Shown in pieces: positions 9,130-40,359 of a DNA stretch of 58,570 nt. The position numbers and the translations under genes are program-made. Every line of letters starts with the position of its first letter. Positions within the stretch are counted from its first letter, which is position 1. Below the pieces are notes generated by a model, which was not told the origin of the DNA, did no database searches, and worked only from the letters and a program-made list of their open reading frames with translations. Source of the DNA: Nitrospinota bacterium (GTDB lineage Bacteria > Nitrospinota > Nitrospinia > Nitrospinales > VA-1); the NCBI GenBank assembly GCA_014382285.1, contig JACNKA010000118.1, positions 1-58,570 of the forward strand. Direction: 5' to 3'.

Positions 9130-9981
9130 TTATCGCTCCTCCACCTTTATAAATACGCTCCTTTTTTCTACCTGTCTGGACGTATTTCTACCGGCAATTT
9201 TCGAGTCTTGCCCATCTCGATTCTGATTCAATCCCCCTAACTCAATCCAATCGCCAACCTGCCCTCTTATCACGGTATCAAGACCCGTTGTTTCTATTTT
9301 TCCATTAGTTATTCTGGATTGCTGTGGTGAAATTTCCAGAATAACCTGATCTCCTCGAATATGAGGTAGCACTCTGAATCCGGTCCGTACATCTCTAAAT
9401 TGGGTGGATTCAAATTGAGTGACAGTGTTTCCCGTCCTGAAGTTTTCAGTTGCCTTGAAAGGCACCTGCTGACCAATATAAATTGTTGCCGCATTTCCCT
9501 CCAGAGTGGTGACGACCTGCGTATTCATTTCATCTAAAAAGGATTCGCTGGCAGAAATTCTCCCCCGCACTGTCCCTTTACCCGGCTTGTCTTCTAGAAT
9601 CACTCCACTTTTTACTCGCGGATTGATAATCACCCGCCTCGAATCACCGATGGGAACTTCACCACTCACCTCACTTTCCCGCTCACTCAATTGAGACCGC
9701 AGGCCCTGCTTCACAGTAATGCGCAAATTTTTAAGTTGGCCATCAATTTTTTCGAGTAGCCCCTTAATCTCCAGCAATTTCTGGGGAGAAGCTCGTACAA
9801 TGAGCTGCTGACGCATTCCCGTGACGGACTCATTACGCCCCAACAGTGGGCGGATGATAGGGATCACATCTTCCACCATTCTATTCTTAAGAGGAATGAC
9901 CTCCATCTTCTCCTGAGCCATGACCGCCGGGGTGATGAAGAGAACGAGTAAAAAAACGTATTTAAGAACTCTTGGCAGCAT
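9130..9981 (-). CDS. Short secretin-like protein (NolW/secretin N-domain plus truncated secretin domain)
   Basis: Signal peptide; VIPLKNRMVEDVIPIIRPLL...QLIVRASPQKLLEIKGLLEKID N-domain; VTTLEGNAATIYIGQQVPF and TGFRVLPHI secretin-like segments. Confidence 0.75.
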   Translation of the reverse strand: MLPRVLKYVFLLVLFITPAVMAQEKMEVIPLKNRMVEDVIPIIRPLLGRNESVTGMRQQLIVRASPQKLLEIKGLLEKIDGQLKNLRITVKQGLRSQLSERESEVSGEVPIGDSRRVIINPRVKSGVILEDKPGKGTVRGRISASESFLDEMNTQVVTTLEGNAATIYIGQQVPFKATENFRTGNTVTQFESTQFRDVRTGFRVLPHIRGDQVILEISPQQSRITNGKIETTGLDTVIRGQVGDWIELGGLNQNRDGQDSKIAGRNTSRQVEKRSVFIKVEER

Positions 9982-10183
9982 AAAATAAACCAGGACAGTA
10001 AAAGCGTTGATAAAGGTTATAGGCTTTAAAAACTGAAGGATATTTCATTGCCTTTATTATACACTCTCCAGGAGGCCTCTAAAAATCACGAATGAATAGG
10101 CTTTTATTTTTAAGGGCTATAAGTTTCAGAATTATCTAATATAAAACTATTTAAGGGACCCCATAATAATATAAAATCAGTCT

Positions 10184-10867
10184 ATGATCGAACTGACCTC
10201 AGTCCTCTTTATCCTGCTTTTCTTTGCATTCCCCCTGCCCGCATTGGCTGGCAGCTTAGGAATATTTACCACCTGGAACCTTTACAGGAAATATGAAGCA
10301 TTTAAGACCCAACCCCATGAGGGGAAGAAAAACCTGATCCTGGGAGCGGCATTATTCCTGATAAATTTTATCTGCAGTATTTTCCTGGGAATCGCCATGG
10401 CCTTTGCGGTCTATTATTTTATTTATGATAATTCATATCTTTTTATCTTCAACTTTTTATTCTGCTCAACGATTTCACTGCGATGGTTTGACTTCACCCA
10501 CAACCTTTATCGATGGTTTATTTTCAAACTCCAATCCAAAAATACGTTCATAACATCCCATTTTGCCGTTTGCCAGGGCTTTCGCGAAAGAGATGATTTC
10601 GGGCTTAGCCCGGTCTACACCGATGCAGGAACATTGAGGCTGGAGGACAAACAATTGATCTTTAAAGGGGTGTTTCGTGAAGAAATCTTCTCTCCCGCAA
10701 ATATCATTCAGGTAGAGAAAAAAAGCTCCGAAAAAATAAAAATTCGCTCAAAGCCGAACAGTTTTAAAAATGCGGAAGTATTTTTAATCACCTTGAAGGA
10801 AAAATTTTATCCATTCAAAAGCCGTCAGGACCGCGATGAAATTTTCAAAACCCTTTTATCCACGTAG
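10184..10867 (+). CDS. Hypothetical membrane protein
   Basis: 227-aa ORF with about three N-terminal hydrophobic helices and a soluble C-terminal part; AT-rich. Confidence 0.6.
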   Translation: MIELTSVLFILLFFAFPLPALAGSLGIFTTWNLYRKYEAFKTQPHEGKKNLILGAALFLINFICSIFLGIAMAFAVYYFIYDNSYLFIFNFLFCSTISLRWFDFTHNLYRWFIFKLQSKNTFITSHFAVCQGFRERDDFGLSPVYTDAGTLRLEDKQLIFKGVFREEIFSPANIIQVEKKSSEKIKIRSKPNSFKNAEVFLITLKEKFYPFKSRQDRDEIFKTLLST

Positions 10868-11135
10868 AAATCCCGGCATCACCGTAATAATAGGCATGGG
10901 ATTATTTGTGTTCCCAATTTTCTCAATTGATTGATTTAGCCACTCAGGTTTCAAATGCTCTGGCGTAGAATCTTTATGAATCTATGGGCTATAAGAAGAA
11001 CGAGTCTTTTTATCACTACAGCCTGCTAATATGAAATAAGCACCTTAACTCAAGTTGATTGAACTGGCGGTTTCAAAAAGATAGAATGTCAGTATACGAA
11101 TTTACTGCCACTGAAATACTAAAACCTCACCCACT

Positions 11136-37445: not shown

Positions 37446-38270
37446 CTATTTTTGGTTATAAATTCTGTAATGATCGCCCAAAAGAACCAGAGCCGTAAAC
37501 GCTAAAACGGTAAAATGCGGCATGTATTTCATGGAATACCAAACAGGAGAAAAACGCACTGTACCACTGATCTCCCCGGAATAATGCTTCAACATTTCCC
37601 CGTATTCTATCATCAAGCGGACGGGAAAACGATCCTGTTCCTGGTTTTTCCGGCGATAAACACGAACTTCAAAGTTCTTTGCTTCACCTCCGTACAGGGT
37701 AAAGCCCATCGTGCCCGAAAAATCCTGCGCTTCTATACCGGGAGGCAGTAAAAGCATCATTCTTATATTTTTGAGCGATCCCGATCGATTCTGAAGAAAC
37801 ACTTTCAAGATGGAAGAATCCAAGTCGGTCGCAGACTCCAGGCTTCCCTCCACTTTGAACACCACAGGCTCTTTGAAAAAAAACGAGTCTGTGACCAGAA
37901 CCGATTTTTTAGTCCCGCTATTCGGATGCGTCCAATATTCCACCATGGCAGTCAGGGGATAGCGGCCCACTCGCATGACAGGGGGATGTTTATCATTTTC
38001 CAGGGTGATGCTCTGCCCCGGATTCAGACGCATGATCTTCGACATCATAGACATCGAGTGGTGAAAATGGAACATCGAACGGACATGATAAACGGGTTGA
38101 GAGCCCGCATTCTTCAAGGTCAACGCCAACTTCACATTTCCAGCGTCATCAACCTGATTCTGGATGGAAACCTCCAGCGGTTCGGCCTGGGCAGAACATA
38201 CCTTCCCAGCCAAAACAGCAAAAAATATTACAGAAAGCTTTAGATAGAGAGACATGGGCCATTTTAACAT
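37446..38270 (-). CDS. Hypothetical exported protein with C-terminal membrane anchor
   Basis: Start reset to ATG 38270 (or 38255), giving a signal peptide (...SVIFFAVLAGKVCSAQA), a beta-rich body and a C-terminal TM helix. The longer track ORF overlaps the SPFH gene antisense. Confidence 0.65.
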   Translation of the reverse strand: MLKWPMSLYLKLSVIFFAVLAGKVCSAQAEPLEVSIQNQVDDAGNVKLALTLKNAGSQPVYHVRSMFHFHHSMSMMSKIMRLNPGQSITLENDKHPPVMRVGRYPLTAMVEYWTHPNSGTKKSVLVTDSFFFKEPVVFKVEGSLESATDLDSSILKVFLQNRSGSLKNIRMMLLLPPGIEAQDFSGTMGFTLYGGEAKNFEVRVYRRKNQEQDRFPVRLMIEYGEMLKHYSGEISGTVRFSPVWYSMKYMPHFTVLAFTALVLLGDHYRIYNQK

Positions 38271-38355
38271 TGTAGAAACGCAATATAAACTCGGACTTAG
38301 CTTGCAAAAGTTGTTATCATCAGGGTAGCCATCCAATAATTTCAGGAGAACCGTT

Positions 38356-39108
38356 ATGGATTTTCTAATGACCCCGCTAATATTACTCGCCCTACTGCTT
38401 TTCAGCATGTTCAAGGTTTTGCGTGAATACGAAAGGGGAGTAATTTTCCTGTTCGGAAGATTCTGGAAGGTTAAGGGACCGGGAATCATCGTTGTATTTC
38501 CCGGAGTCCAGAAAATGGTCAAGGTCAGCCTGCGCACTGTGGTGATGGATGTTCCACCGCAAGATATCATCACCAAGGACAATGTGACGGTGAAAGTCAA
38601 CGCAGTGCTTTATTTCCGTGTAGTCGATTCCAAAAAGGCCATTATCGAGGTGGAGGACTATCTGTATGCAACTTCACAACTCTCACAAACGACTCTGCGA
38701 AGTGTTTTAGGACAAAGCACACTCGACGACCTGCTCTCCAATCGTGAAGAGATCAACGCTCATCTGCAAAAAGTAATCGATGAGCAAACCGAGCCGTGGG
38801 GGGTCAAGGTTGCTAACGTAGAAGTCAAAAATGTTGATCTGCCTCAGGAAATGCAACGCGCATTGGCGAAACAGGCAGAAGCCGAGCGCGAAAGACGGGC
38901 AAAAGTCATCAATGCTCAGGGTGAGTTTGAAGCGGCGCAGAAAACCTGTGATGCTGCAGACCTCATCGGGGCGCACCCGCCAGCATTACAACTGCGTTTT
39001 TTTCAAACTCTGCTGGATCTTTCAAGCGGTGAAGGCACTCATACTTATATCCCAATTCCCTTTGACCTGTTCGATTCGATGCGTAATAAGACTAAAAATG
39101 ACAATTGA
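38356..39108 (+). CDS. SPFH/band 7 (slipin/stomatin-like) protein
   Basis: [15 protein letters not shown]-like [48 protein letters not shown]. Confidence 0.93.
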
Positions 39109-39673
39109 GATTAAGGGAAACTGGGATAAAGGGTTTGCTCATGATGACCATATAGTTAACAGCGTTTACAAAGGACTAAATGAGTTTGGGCACAAAGATT
39201 TTGACAATACCTATAGCCCAATGGGTAGACTGGTCAATAAACTTAAATACAAAAATGACAAATCTGTCATCAAAGGAATTGTCGATTTGCTTGGCAAATA
39301 CGAAGGCATCGCCAAATTCGATGCCATTATTCCAGCACCTTCCTCAAAAAAAAACCGGCCCTACCAACCCGTTGATGAAGTTGCCCTTGAACTGGGAAAA
39401 CGAATGGGTGTTAATGTATTAATTGGTTTTCTTGAAAAAAAAGAAGGTAGCAAACAACTCAAGAATATTGAAGTCTTAAAGGAACGCATTCAGGAACTCA
39501 AAAAAGTCACTTTCATAGCTTCTGATAAAAATATTTCAGGCCAAAAAGTGCTATTATTGGATGACTTATATGACACTGGAACCACACTTAGAGTTTCGAC
39601 CGACTTACTCTATAAACAAGCCAGAGTGAGTACAGTAAGTGTTCTAACAATGACAAAAACCAAGGACAGCTGA
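39098..39673 (+). CDS. ComF-like type I phosphoribosyltransferase
   Basis: ATG 39098 overlaps the SPFH 3' end. KLKYK, IIPAPSS, RPYQPV and the PRPP-binding loop [13 protein letters not shown]. Confidence 0.85.
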
Positions 39674-40236
39674 TGACAACTGTGTTTTTATCGGGTTCGC
39701 GGCAGTTAAACCGACTGAATGACACGATAAAGGCTCGGATCAATAATATGGTCGAGCAAAATTTCCTCATTCTTGTGGGTGATGCCAACGGCGCAGACAA
39801 AGCAATGCAACAATATCTCACTGACTCTCACTACTCGAATGTTAAGGTTTTTTGTGCAGGGAACACGTGCAGGAACAATACTGGCAATTGGGATGTAACA
39901 CAGGTCTATGTAGACTCAAAACTTAATGGACGCGATTTCTACACCGCAAAAGATAAAGAAATGGCCGCGAAAGCAGATTACGGTTTTGTTTTGTGGGATG
40001 GCAAGAGTTCAGGTGCAATCAATAATGTATTTGAGCTATTAAAATATAATAAACAGGCTGTCATATATTTCTCACCTGAAAAAGAGTTTCATACTATTTC
40101 GCATTTAAATGACGCAAAAACTTTACTAAATAAATGCGACCCCGCCACCGTTGACTTAATCAGCAAAAAAATCAAACTGCCCAGTTCAATAGCAGACATC
40201 CAAAAGGCAGCACAAGGAAACTTGGCATTATCTTAA
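39673..40236 (+). CDS. SLOG-superfamily (YspA/DUF2493/DprA-like Rossmann) protein
   Basis: VFLSGSR, VGDANGADKAMQ, KDKEMAAKAD, LWDGKSSGAINNV; TGATG stop/start overlap with the PRTase. Confidence 0.7.
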   Translation: MTTVFLSGSRQLNRLNDTIKARINNMVEQNFLILVGDANGADKAMQQYLTDSHYSNVKVFCAGNTCRNNTGNWDVTQVYVDSKLNGRDFYTAKDKEMAAKADYGFVLWDGKSSGAINNVFELLKYNKQAVIYFSPEKEFHTISHLNDAKTLLNKCDPATVDLISKKIKLPSSIADIQKAAQGNLALS

Positions 40237-40359
40237 TTATATTTAAAGCTACTCTTAAAACCTGCGCATGATACTGGTCGAGGGAGTGCGCAAAATTTTG
40301 ATATTTCCACAATCCCCAACGCAAACGTTTAGCAGGGCTACTAAAACGTCCTGAACGAT

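What the first reader, a model, noticed from the sequence alone, without database searches (positions are those of the whole stretch)
39098..40236. AT-rich PRTase + compact SLOG gene pair: candidate ShosTA-like anti-phage / toxin-antitoxin variant
Seen: two translationally coupled genes (TGATG), a ComF-like PRTase with an intact DDLYDTGTT loop and a 187-aa Rossmann protein with SGSR / GDANGAD / KDKEM / WDGKSSG motifs. Hand-counted 60-nt lines are 25-40% GC versus 48% in a line of the flanking SPFH gene. The pair is wedged between unrelated host genes, with an IS-end-like motif and hairpin on the right. Known: PRTase + DprA/SLOG pairs (ShosTA, DprA-PRTase) are toxin-antitoxin defence systems acting through nucleotide metabolism. 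The partner here looks like the YspA/DUF2493 SLOG type rather than full DprA, and the PRTase has no extra fused domain. Inference: a minimal, possibly uncharacterised two-gene nucleotide-depletion or signalling defence system.
Basis: partly seen in the sequence, partly recalled or inferred. Interest (0 to 1): 0.8.

Follow-up and report, generated by a model that had tools for sequence, protein, structure and literature searches.

The report
Minimal PRTase-SLOG toxin-antitoxin gene pair
Two small overlapping foreign genes, a phosphoribosyltransferase and a compact DprA-like (SLOG) protein, were inserted between two housekeeping genes of a marine Nitrospina; they form a widespread, untested, stripped-down relative of the ShosTA/PsyrTA toxin-antitoxin phage-defence systems.

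Summary
The gene pair is real: PRTase at 39098-39673 (191 aa) and a SLOG-fold protein at 39673-40236 (187 aa), joined by a TGATG overlap. GC is 0.387 against 0.461 for the window. It is a roughly 1.25 kb insertion. Four genomes of the same genus have the SPFH stop followed directly by the cusA stop, and only 3 of 23 genomes in the genus carry the pair. Both genes are under purifying selection, and metatranscriptome contigs cover both.

The PRTase matches the PADLOC PsyrT and ShosT models, and its fold is ComF/ShosT-like. The partner matches no sequence model, but its predicted fold is closest to ShosA and DprA.

Comparative data support a toxin-antitoxin or defence reading:
- All 75 readable PRTase loci have a SLOG-superfamily gene directly downstream: 69 compact, and 6 true PsyrA/ShosA-type DprA.
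- Compact SLOG genes also occur alone, or fused to antitoxin or effector domains (HigA-like HTH, YhfG next to Fic, Abi_alpha, HEPN).
- The pair sits on 101 plasmids and in variable islands with RM, TA and CBASS genes.

It lacks ShosT's pyrophosphatase domain and ShosA's SAM domain, so I call it a new variant, not a member. The claimed IS-end motif is not supported. Function is inferred, not shown. Interest is moderate.

The parts
39098..39673 (+). Minimal ComF/ShosT-type phosphoribosyltransferase (191 aa), the presumed toxin or effector. It has an N-terminal beta-rich 'hood' (GNWxKGFAxDxH...) and the PRPP loop [12 protein letters not shown].
   Evidence: Translation. Pfam PF00156 scores 26.1 bits against a cut-off of 26.3. 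PADLOC PsyrT 3e-13 and ShosT 2.8e-10. Family alignment with invariant D155, D156 and G161. AF2 pLDDT 91.5, with best fold matches HpComF 7p0h and ShosT 8zvc (TMq 0.56). dN/dS is 0.19-0.24.
39673..40236 (+). Compact SLOG-fold (DprA-core-like) protein of 187 aa, the presumed antitoxin or sensor. Motifs: SGSR, GDANGAD, CRNNxGxW, KDKEM, WDGKSSG. It ends in a three-helix C-terminal tail.
   Evidence: Translation. No Pfam, PADLOC or NCBIfam hit at threshold. AF2 pLDDT 92.8. Foldseek best matches are ShosA 8zva, HpDprA, TRPM SLOG and YpsA, and viral DprA-like and YspA/DUF2493 proteins. hhalign against PsyrA/ShosA-type partners gives E = 0.0023 with the motifs in register. dN/dS is 0.09-0.12.
39671..39675 (+). 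TGATG stop/start overlap, consistent with translational coupling. Most relatives use a 4-nt ATGA overlap instead.
   Evidence: Sequence. In 80 genome loci the PRTase typically ends 4 nt inside the SLOG gene.
39096..40343 (.). Inserted segment of about 1.25 kb with approximate boundaries: the two genes plus about 107 nt of 3' non-coding tail. No terminal repeats.
   Evidence: Comparison with empty sites in L081, L082, L087 and L090. There the sequence ...AAAGGCAAGGATACCTGA is followed directly by the cusA stop. The original CCTGA remnant is seen at about 40344 in the window. No IR or TSD.
40237..40343 (+). 3' non-coding tail with a weak hairpin (about 40263-40292) followed by an A/T-rich run. 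Not a significant terminator or IS end.
   Evidence: The fold has z = +0.8 against shuffles. No terminator was called on the + strand. The tail is conserved only in L034.
38356..39108 (+). Host SPFH/Band_7 gene. It is context, not part of the system. Its 3' end was rewritten by the insertion, and its transcript appears to read into the pair.
   Evidence: SPFH is present in 10 of 11 tested genomes of the genus whether or not the pair is there. Band_7 was found next to the pair only in the two Nitrospina loci among 145 neighbours. A metatranscriptome contig spans 38881-39153.

Best explanation
The pair is a mobile two-gene toxin-antitoxin-type conflict module. It is probably an abortive-infection or anti-phage system that also acts as an addiction cassette. 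It is a stripped-down relative of ShosTA and PsyrTA.

Inferred mechanism:
1. The 191-aa PRTase is the toxic effector. It uses PRPP through its intact DD...TG.T loop, and its strongly conserved N-terminal hood selects an unknown acceptor. The result is disturbed nucleotide and DNA metabolism, as shown for ShosT.
2. The 187-aa SLOG protein, translationally coupled downstream, keeps the PRTase harmless. Most likely it acts as a DprA-core-like binder of ssDNA or of a nucleotide. On that view it counteracts or gates the toxin indirectly, as in type IV systems, and releases it on a phage cue.

Shown here: anatomy, fold class, insertion, accessory distribution, obligate PRTase-to-SLOG linkage, selection, transcription, and mobile or defence contexts.

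Inferred only: toxicity, neutralisation, the trigger and phage protection.
For: 1. Homology of the effector.
- PADLOC PsyrT 3e-13 and ShosT 2.8e-10.
- The fold is close to ComF 7p0h and ShosT 8zvc.
- The PRPP-loop aspartates, whose mutation abolishes ShosT toxicity (PMC11961720), are invariant.

2. The partner is SLOG/DprA-like by fold. Its motifs (GSR, GxAxGxD, RNNW, G-rich loop) align with PsyrA/ShosA-type proteins.

3. Linkage, starting from the PRTase.
- All 75 of 75 readable metagenome loci have a SLOG-superfamily gene immediately downstream.
- 69 of these are compact. The other 6 are true DprA, matching PADLOC PsyrA at 1e-49, ShosA at 4e-40 and Pfam DNA_processg_A at 4e-40.

4. Asymmetry expected for a toxin and its antidote.
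- Only 56 of 77 readable SLOG loci keep a PRTase.
- Several keep an intact SLOG beside a truncated or frameshifted PRTase: L006, L010, L069.

5. The SLOG sits on the antitoxin or sensor side in other architectures.
- SLOG fused to a HigA-like 'addiction module antidote' HTH, on plasmids next to a 'ComF family protein'.
- SLOG-YhfG fusion next to Fic.
- SLOG+Abi_alpha, SLOG+HEPN_AbiU2 and a PRTase-SLOG single-chain fusion.

6. Mobility and context.
- 101 plasmid records, 55 of them conjugative.
- One copy lies beside CBASS, ImmA/IrrE and VapC on a Brucella anthropi plasmid.
- Neighbours are highly variable and include Fic, HNH, RM, HipA and AlbA_2.
- About 60% protein identity across phyla.

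7. In this lineage.
- An insertion with empty sites.
- Present in 3 of 23 genomes of the genus.
- Decayed remnants in G019 and in L163, L164 and L169.
- IS3 and a broken BsoBI RM system next to it in L001.
- Low GC and purifying selection on both genes.
- RNA-library contigs cover both genes and both junctions.
Against: - There is no experimental evidence for this compact form. The tested systems have a PPase-PRTase toxin and a SAM-DprA antitoxin.
- The partner does not match the ShosA or PsyrA HMMs. The hhalign probability against DprA-type partners is only 12.6%.
- The SLOG is more conserved than the PRTase (dN/dS 0.1 against 0.2; also identity across phyla). This is unusual for a classical antitoxin and fits an enzyme or a binder of a conserved ligand.
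- In this genome the pair has no promoter of its own and lies between housekeeping genes, not in a defence island.
- No copy was found in 50,697 phage records.
- Metatranscriptome contigs can contain DNA carry-over.
- No control gene set was run for the neighbourhood enrichment.
Confidence: 0.68

Rival explanations
1. Writer/eraser or signal pair instead of a DprA-style type IV TA. The PRTase phosphoribosylates a base. The acceptor could be free, in a nucleotide, or in nucleic acid. Alternatively the PRTase makes a nucleotide signal. The SLOG protein is then an enzyme, such as a LOG-like phosphoribohydrolase, or a high-affinity receptor that removes or senses that product. This would be analogous to DarT/DarG or to the nucleotide-centred systems of Burroughs et al. 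2015.
For: - The SLOG superfamily includes LOG N-glycosidases and nucleotide sensors such as ThsA (PMC9503650 and PMC6459960).
- The 12 invariant residues of 65 diverse members (G36, D37, G40, D42, Q46, V57, R67, D94, M97, W108, S112, G114) lie mostly on loops at the C-terminal edge of the beta-sheet. That is the usual Rossmannoid ligand site.
- The SLOG is under tighter constraint than the PRTase.
- A natural PRTase-SLOG single-chain fusion exists.
- NADAR-SLOG and DUF4326-SLOG fusions point to ribosyl-linked chemistry.
- A YpsA-PRTase gene-pair branch was predicted to act on nucleotides.
Against: - LOG structures are not among the top 50 fold matches. DprA, ShosA and YspA-type matches dominate.
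- The motifs align with DprA-type GSR and GxAxGID, not with LOG's PGGxGTxxE.
- The family is basic, with median pI 9.1, as expected for a nucleic-acid binder.
- A sister PRTase clade uses true DprA-type partners.
- The two-gene form contains no separate effector for a signalling model.
Confidence: 0.2
2. Pure addiction or stabilisation cassette of plasmids and genomic islands, with no role in phage defence.
For: - 101 plasmid records, 55 of them conjugative. PGAP names the HTH-fused partner 'addiction module antidote protein'.
- None found in phage genomes.
- Long vertical retention at one chromosomal site, with dS like that of the flanking gene.
Against: - The closest characterised relatives, ShosTA and PsyrTA, do defend against phages.
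- The pair co-locates with CBASS, RM, Abi-type and Fic genes.
- SLOG fusions to Abi_alpha and HEPN_AbiU2 are abortive-infection architectures.
- The two roles are not mutually exclusive.
Confidence: 0.1
3. Housekeeping function: a ComF/DprA-like competence pair or a nucleotide-salvage PRTase with a helper.
For: - The best PDB fold match of the PRTase is H. pylori ComF. The partner is DprA-like.
- NCBIfam comF gives E = 3e-12.
- No PF02481 DprA was detected in this 94%-complete assembly.
Against: - Only 3 of 23 genomes of the genus carry it, and clean empty sites exist.
- 18 of 23 genomes of the genus, including both other carriers, have a normal ~380-aa DprA.
- The genome has another, better ComF-like gene, at 107 bits against 46.
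- The comF score is far below its cut-off, 46.7 against 233.6 bits.
- No competence genes are among the 145 neighbours.
- The pair is carried on plasmids and has low GC.
Confidence: 0.02

Closest known systems
ShosTA (also called DprA-PRTase or Rst_DprA-PPRT; E. coli APEC O1 and the P2 hotspot; PDB 8zva-8zvd; PMC11961720, PMC12961424)
   Same: - Gene order is PRTase then SLOG/DprA-fold partner, tightly coupled.
- The PRTase matches the ShosT HMM (2.8e-10) and the ShosT fold (TMq 0.56).
- The PRPP-loop DD that ShosT needs for toxicity is conserved.
- The partner's best solved-structure match is ShosA.
- Both are mobile and found in defence contexts.
   Different: - The toxin lacks ShosT's N-terminal pyrophosphatase domain (191 aa against 424 aa) and has its own conserved hood.
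- The partner is 187 aa against 328 aa. It has no SAM domain, lacks the C-terminal half of the DprA domain, and does not match the ShosA HMMs.
- Whether it binds ssDNA or RecA is unknown.
- Not tested experimentally.
PsyrTA / RqlHI (RecQ-like helicase-PRTase toxin plus DprA-like antitoxin; PMC4670107)
   Same: - The best PADLOC hit of the PRTase is the C-terminal PRTase of PsyrT (3e-13).
- A sister clade of the same minimal PRTase is paired with proteins matching PsyrA at 1e-49.
   Different: - The toxin has no RecQ helicase part.
- The window's partner does not match PsyrA.
YpsA-family SLOG + PRTase gene pairs noted by comparative genomics (Burroughs et al. 2015; Brzozowski et al. 2019, PMC6459960)
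   Same: A small stand-alone SLOG protein coupled as a gene pair with a PRTase, placed among nucleotide-centred conflict systems. The GxD/E substrate-loop signature is present (G40-A41-D42).
   Different: - Only 3 of 65 members give even a weak hit to Pfam YpsA. DprA and YAcAr similarities are more frequent.
- I could not read the 2015 paper to check whether this exact family is the one they drew.
- No experiments exist for that branch either.
ComFC and DprA of natural transformation
   Same: Same two folds. ComF is the best PDB fold match of the PRTase, and both competence proteins handle ssDNA.
   Different: - Accessory, horizontally moved, and carried on plasmids.
- Lacks the ComF zinc finger and scores far below the family cut-off.
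- The host genus has its own ComF-like and DprA genes.
Other defence PRTases (type III retron effectors; Ophion OpnC, bioRxiv 10.1101/2025.09.30.679545)
   Same: A PRTase acts as the effector of a defence system. That preprint reports that the defence PRTases form one clade.
   Different: Different partners (reverse transcriptase/msDNA, or rSAM+PHP). No retron or Ophion genes are present here.

Membership tests
ShosTA | Toxin contains a type I PRTase domain with a functional PRPP loop (the DD needed for toxicity) | tested here: met
   PADLOC ShosT 2.8e-10. D155, D156 and G161 are invariant. Fold match to 8zvc with TMq 0.56.
ShosTA | Toxin has an N-terminal pyrophosphatase (hydrolase) domain fused to the PRTase (ShosT residues 1-164) | tested here: not met
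   The protein is 191 aa in total, and all of it aligns as hood plus PRTase core. ShosT architecture is from PMC11961720.
ShosTA | Antitoxin is a DprA-family protein recognised by ShosA/DNA_processg_A models | tested here: not met
   No PADLOC ShosA or PsyrA hit at E <= 1. Pfam DNA_processg_A gives E = 0.089 and 12.4 bits against a cut-off of 29.6. Hits are sub-threshold in 25 of 65 relatives.
ShosTA | Antitoxin has the DprA/SLOG Rossmannoid fold | tested here: met
   Foldseek's top PDB match is ShosA 8zva (E = 1.1e-3, 147 columns, rmsd 3.9), followed by HpDprA. hhalign against ShosA-type partners gives E = 0.0023 with motifs in register.
ShosTA | Antitoxin carries an N-terminal SAM domain, which is needed for ShosA stability | tested here: not met
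   The SLOG core starts at residue 3.
ShosTA | Toxicity of T, neutralisation by A without direct binding, ssDNA and RecA binding by A, and phage defence | not testable with these tools
   Needs expression, EMSA, pull-down and plaque assays.
PsyrTA/RqlHI | Toxin is a RecQ-like helicase fused to a C-terminal PRTase | tested here: not met
   Only PsyrT profile positions 537-685 of 689 are matched. The protein is 191 aa.
Toxin-antitoxin / mobile defence module (generic) | Two small coupled genes, accessory and horizontally mobile, in variable or defence contexts and on plasmids | tested here: met
Toxin-antitoxin / mobile defence module (generic) | The presumed toxin never occurs without its antidote, while the antidote may occur alone | tested here: met
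   All 75 of 75 readable PRTase loci have a SLOG-superfamily gene downstream. Only 56 of 77 SLOG loci have a PRTase, and some of those PRTases are truncated. The two samples come from different collections.
SLOG superfamily | Rossmannoid fold with Gly-rich loops after beta1 and beta2 and a G-rich loop before the last core helix | tested here: met
   AF2 model with pLDDT 92.8. Matches to ShosA, DprA, TRPM MHR, Moco carrier protein and YpsA, and to viral YspA/DUF2493 and DprA-like proteins.
YAcAr / YspA (Pfam PF10686, formerly DUF2493) | Match to the Pfam model at the gathering score | tested here: not met
   No hit for P0002 at E <= 1. Sub-threshold hits in 16 of 65 relatives, best 4e-4.
YpsA (Pfam PF06908) | Match to the Pfam model; GxD/E substrate-loop motif | tested here: inconclusive
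   Model hit in only 3 of 65 relatives, best 0.066. The GxD motif is present (G40-A41-D42, invariant), but DprA shares it. The YpsA 2nx2 fold match is rank 30.
ComF (TIGR00201) / competence | Score above the family cut-off; conserved housekeeping distribution with competence genes | tested here: not met
   46.7 bits against a cut-off of 233.55. Present in 3 of 23 genomes of the genus. A better ComF-like gene lies elsewhere in the genome.

The most novel reading that the evidence does not exclude
The 187-aa protein may represent a portable SLOG 'antidote/sensor' module, not just a trimmed DprA. In this reading one conserved ligand-binding crevice reads a common infection cue, either ssDNA or a phosphoribosyl or ADP-ribosyl-type nucleotide. 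It thereby gates unrelated toxins: a bare PRTase here, Fic through a fused YhfG, and Abi_alpha and HEPN effectors in single chains.

In the PRTase pairs it could be the enzymatic eraser of a PRPP-dependent base modification. That would make the pair a DarTG-like writer/eraser system and would reveal the still unknown acceptor chemistry of the whole ShosT/PsyrT/retron-PRTase class.
Probability: 0.2. Interest if true: 0.75.

Novelty: new variant of a known kind. Interest (0 to 1): 0.45.

Why it matters
How defence PRTases kill is still unresolved. The acceptor substrate of ShosT is unknown, and two recent papers propose different neutralisation routes (PMC11961720, PMC12961424).

This family is the minimal form of that system: PRTase core plus hood, and SLOG core only. 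Several properties make it a useful test case:
- It is widespread. It was found in 463 of about 185,000 species genomes, in 2,198 protein clusters, and on 101 plasmids, including Klebsiella and Enterobacter plasmids that could be moved into E. coli.
- The PADLOC library used here does not match the partner, so the pair would not be called a complete system from these models, and defence-system counts may miss it.
- Its small size and high conservation make it a good subject for finding the acceptor, the trigger and the role of the SLOG crevice.

For Nitrospina biology it is a minor accessory trait.

Tried and rejected
- Sequence-profile searches of the SLOG family against PDB found nothing relevant (A1 and the broader A4). 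Only fold comparison linked it to ShosA and DprA.
- Pfam, PADLOC and NCBIfam gave no usable hit for the partner.
- I looked for IS ends, a target-site duplication or a terminator at the right edge and found none. A conserved 3' or 5' flank across phyla was also absent.
- SPFH as a third component is rejected. It is present with or without the pair and is not a neighbour in other lineages.
- The competence or housekeeping reading is rejected.
- Phage carriage: no tblastn hit in 50,697 phage records. Earlier scan notes report more distant compact pairs in P2-like prophages, which I did not verify.
- Burroughs et al. 2015 could not be read, so identity with their YpsA-PRTase branch is unresolved.
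Only the GSR arginine (R10) could be aligned through hhalign.
- I did not run a control gene set for neighbourhood enrichment, so the defence-island association is qualitative.
Full report
**1. Observation**

The window holds two same-strand ORFs.
- P0001, 39098-39673, is 191 aa.
- P0002, 39673-40236, is 187 aa.
- The PRTase stop TGA (39671-39673) shares one base with the partner's ATG, giving TGATG.

In family alignments their core residues are invariant or nearly so. In the PRTase these are D155, D156 and G161 of the PRPP loop. In the partner they are G36, D37, G40, D42, R67, D94, M97, W108, S112 and G114 across 65 sequences that are only 31-56% identical to it.

The GC content of the pair is 0.387. 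The window is 0.461, SPFH 0.473 and cusA 0.472. Only 6 of 1149 windows of the same size are as low.

The PRTase ATG lies inside the last codons of the upstream SPFH/Band_7 gene, whose stop is at 39108.

The one element I could not confirm is the 'IS-end-like motif and hairpin' on the right.
- There are no terminal inverted repeats or target duplication.
- No + strand terminator was called.
- The 7-bp hairpin near 40263-40292 is no more stable than shuffled sequence (z = +0.8).
- The 3' tail is conserved only in the closest relative.

**2. The pair is an insertion and an accessory trait**

The organism is a marine Nitrospina. The nearest loci are L034 (Nitrospina sp.) and L001 (Nitrospinales).

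Only 3 of 23 genomes of the genus carry the partner gene, plus one fragment. None of 17 genomes outside the genus do.

SPFH is present in 10 of 11 tested genomes of the genus. In four of them (L081, L082, L087, L090) its stop is followed within roughly 10-100 nt by the stop of the convergent cusA gene. Comparing junctions places the insert at about 39096-40343. It replaced the last two SPFH codons, and the old 'CCTGA' end of SPFH is still visible at its right edge.

Two kinds of decayed copies exist.
- In G019 (L086), the first ~45 nt of the PRTase are fused to a 143-nt piece of the SLOG gene, followed by an HNH-domain gene.
- In L163, L164 and L169, the PRTase is cut at residue 83 and there is no SLOG.

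In L001 the pair is followed by an IS3-type transposase and a frameshifted BsoBI restriction gene.

Among the three intact copies, dS of the pair (0.55-0.84) is like that of SPFH (0.53-0.84). This suggests one old insertion that was then inherited vertically. Both genes are under purifying selection: dN/dS is 0.19-0.24 for the PRTase, 0.09-0.12 for the SLOG and 0.05-0.08 for SPFH.

The identical stretch is present in independent marine metagenome studies. Contigs from four metatranscriptome libraries cover both genes, the SPFH-PRTase junction (38881-39153) and the PRTase-SLOG junction (39600-39901). This suggests read-through transcription from SPFH, with the caveat that such libraries can carry DNA.

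**3. What the proteins are**

*PRTase*
- Pfam Pribosyltran scores 26.1 bits against a cut-off of 26.3.
- PADLOC gives PsyrT 3e-13 (the C-terminal PRTase part) and ShosT 2.8e-10.
- NCBIfam comF gives 3e-12, far below its cut-off.
- The AF2 model (pLDDT 91.5) is closest to H. pylori ComF 7p0h by E-value and to ShosT 8zvc by TM-score (0.56).
- The first ~50 residues form a beta-rich hood with many invariant residues (W9, G12, H18, S22, G26, G31, T38, G43). This is where type I PRTases hold the acceptor, so a specific acceptor is likely (inference).

*Partner*
- It matches nothing at threshold in Pfam, PADLOC, NCBIfam or PDB sequence profiles.
- Its AF2 model is confident (pLDDT 92.8).
- Foldseek ranks ShosA 8zva first, then H. 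pylori DprA, TRPM SLOG domains, Moco carrier protein and YpsA.
- Among viral models the best matches are small 'DprA-like' and 'YspA/DUF2493' SLOG proteins.
- Scanning 65 diverse relatives gives only sub-threshold hits: DNA_processg_A in 25, YAcAr/DUF2493 in 16 and YpsA in 3.

It is therefore a distinct compact SLOG family lying between DprA and YAcAr.

**4. Comparative evidence for function**

The partner family is large. It has 881+ clusters at 90% identity, 2,198 clusters at 50% with E <= 1e-3, and 463 loci among about 185,000 species genomes across many phyla. Identity to the Nitrospina protein is about 60% across phyla.

*Linkage.*
- In 80 genome loci, 56 have the PRTase directly upstream, typically with a 4-nt overlap. 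Three more are cut by contig ends.
- Starting instead from the PRTase, I read 80 metagenome loci. All 75 loci whose 3' side is readable have a SLOG-superfamily gene immediately downstream.
- 69 of these have the compact type. Six have a 315-325-aa protein that is a true DprA: PADLOC PsyrA 1e-49, ShosA 4e-40, Pfam DNA_processg_A 4e-40.
- Those six PRTases are the same minimal type, hood included, and are 42-43% identical to P0001. This ties the family directly to ShosTA/PsyrTA.

A profile-profile alignment of the compact family with these DprA-type partners is weak (E = 0.0023, probability 12.6%). Even so, it puts GSR, GxAxGxD, RNNW and the G-rich loop in register.

*Asymmetry.* SLOG genes occur without a PRTase in 21 of 77 loci, or beside truncated or frameshifted PRTases (L006, L010, L069). 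I saw no intact PRTase without a SLOG-type partner. This is what is expected if the PRTase is the dangerous component.

*Other architectures of the compact SLOG:*
- fused to Abi_alpha
- fused to HEPN_AbiU2
- fused to a HigA-like 'addiction module antidote' HTH
- fused to YhfG, the Fic antitoxin
- fused to NADAR and to DUF4326
- fused to the PRTase itself in one chain

In Thiothrix the SLOG-YhfG fusion is followed by Fic and preceded by either an HNH gene or the PRTase.

*Mobility and neighbours.*
- On plasmids (101 records, 55 conjugative), PGAP annotates the pair as 'ComF family protein' plus 'addiction module antidote protein' or an XRE regulator.
- In a Brucella anthropi plasmid it sits between a CBASS operon (DncV-like cyclase plus patatin), an HTH-ImmA/IrrE pair and a VapC module.
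- The 145 immediate neighbours in genome loci fall into 125 Pfam families with no conserved partner. The most frequent are Fic (8), HNH (7), ORF6N, type I/IIG methylases, HipA, Schlafen/AlbA_2 and GIY-YIG.
- No competence genes appear.

**5. Mechanism**

Established knowledge from the literature:
- ShosT is a PPase-PRTase toxin that binds PRPP. Its DD mutant is non-toxic.
- ShosA is a SAM-DprA dimer that binds ssDNA and RecA. It neutralises ShosT without binding it.
- Phage shut-off or phage ssDNA releases the toxin (PMC11961720, PMC12961424).

By homology and context, the most likely reading is that P0001 is a PRPP-using toxin and P0002 its neutraliser or sensor.

Whether P0002 works like a mini-DprA or as an enzyme or receptor for a phosphoribosyl product is open.
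- For the mini-DprA reading: it has a basic pI (median 9.1), a GSR arginine, and DprA-type partners in the sister clade.
- For the enzyme or receptor reading: invariant polar residues line the Rossmannoid crevice, it is under stronger constraint than the toxin, it is fused to NADAR and DUF4326, and a single-chain fusion exists.

I give the overall toxin-antitoxin/defence reading about 0.68. Within it the DprA-like mode is somewhat more likely than the writer/eraser mode.

**6. Rivals**

- A housekeeping ComF/DprA role is excluded. The evidence is the distribution, the empty sites, a better ComF-like gene elsewhere and a normal ~380-aa DprA in 18 of 23 genomes of the genus, including the other two carriers. 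The absence of DprA from this 94%-complete assembly is probably a gap.
- SPFH is not part of the system.
- A pure addiction role cannot be separated from defence without experiments.

**7. Novelty**

The concept is known: a PRTase toxin with a DprA/SLOG partner, as in ShosTA, PsyrTA and the DprA-PRTase pair of the P2 hotspot. A YpsA-PRTase gene-pair branch has also been noted by comparative genomics.

I found no experimental work on this compact form. The PADLOC library used here recognises only the PRTase, and only weakly.

It fails three defining ShosTA features: the PPase domain, the SAM domain and the ShosA HMM. I therefore file it as a new variant of a known kind, not as a member.

Earlier notes of this scan describe the same family in other genomes with the same conclusion. 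I treated them as leads. Nearly all the analyses above were run before I read them, and I set my scores independently of them.

Noticed in passing
L026:7426-9321 (Thiothrix MAG); also L012, L015, L016, L017, L018: A three-gene arrangement: PRTase, then a SLOG-YhfG fusion (249 aa), then a Fic toxin. In sister Thiothrix loci an HNH gene replaces the PRTase. One SLOG protein may therefore serve as antidote for two different toxins.
   Followed up: partly
L130, L134, L135, L138, L140, L160 (metagenome contigs): A sister clade of the same ~193-aa minimal PRTase is paired with full-length PsyrA/ShosA-type DprA proteins of 315-325 aa. This is an intermediate form between classical ShosTA/PsyrTA and the compact pair: a minimal toxin with a full antitoxin.
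   Followed up: partly
L086:1147-1340 (G019) and L163, L164, L169: Decayed remnants of the pair sit at the same SPFH-downstream site in relatives. One is a PRTase/SLOG deletion fusion followed by a 296-aa HNH-domain gene. The others are a PRTase truncated at residue 83 with no SLOG.
   Followed up: partly
L001:8622-11503: Downstream of the pair in a Nitrospinales genome lie a short possible Schlafen/AlbA_2-like fragment (no Pfam hit at E <= 1e-3), an IS3-family transposase (orfA/orfB), a methyltransferase fragment and a BsoBI restriction endonuclease split into two ORFs. The site is a variable mobile or defence spot.
   Followed up: partly
P0210, P0280, P0224, P0225, P0308 (proteins): Compact SLOG domains are fused to Abi_alpha, HEPN_AbiU2, NADAR and DUF4326. 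One 700-aa protein has no recognisable second domain. Their genomic contexts were not examined.
   Followed up: no
L066:6491-7528 and L086:223-1110: These proteins share an N-terminal 'NVGWM..Y.G....E..GG...N...GHEV.NF' region. It is joined to NOV_C in one and to HNH in the other, next to an orphan SLOG or a SLOG remnant. This may be another conflict-system family.
   Followed up: no
window 9850-11100: This is the only other stretch of the window with GC as low as the pair (0.377-0.39 in 1139-nt windows). It may be another foreign islet.
   Followed up: no
window 37446-38303 (- strand): A ~285-aa protein is conserved next to SPFH throughout the genus but has no Pfam hit at E <= 1e-3. The ORF list extends it to 384 aa from an upstream TTG, which is probably not the real start.
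   Followed up: no
G000 whole assembly: No PF02481 DprA gene was detected in this genome, although 18 of 23 genomes of the genus have one of about 380 aa. This is most likely an assembly gap (94% complete).
   Followed up: partly
L093:1-5861 (Brucella anthropi plasmid NZ_CP008817.1): A PRTase plus SLOG-HTH pair lies directly beside a CBASS operon (DncV-like cyclase plus patatin), an HTH-ImmA/IrrE pair and a VapC module. This is a compact plasmid defence island.
   Followed up: no
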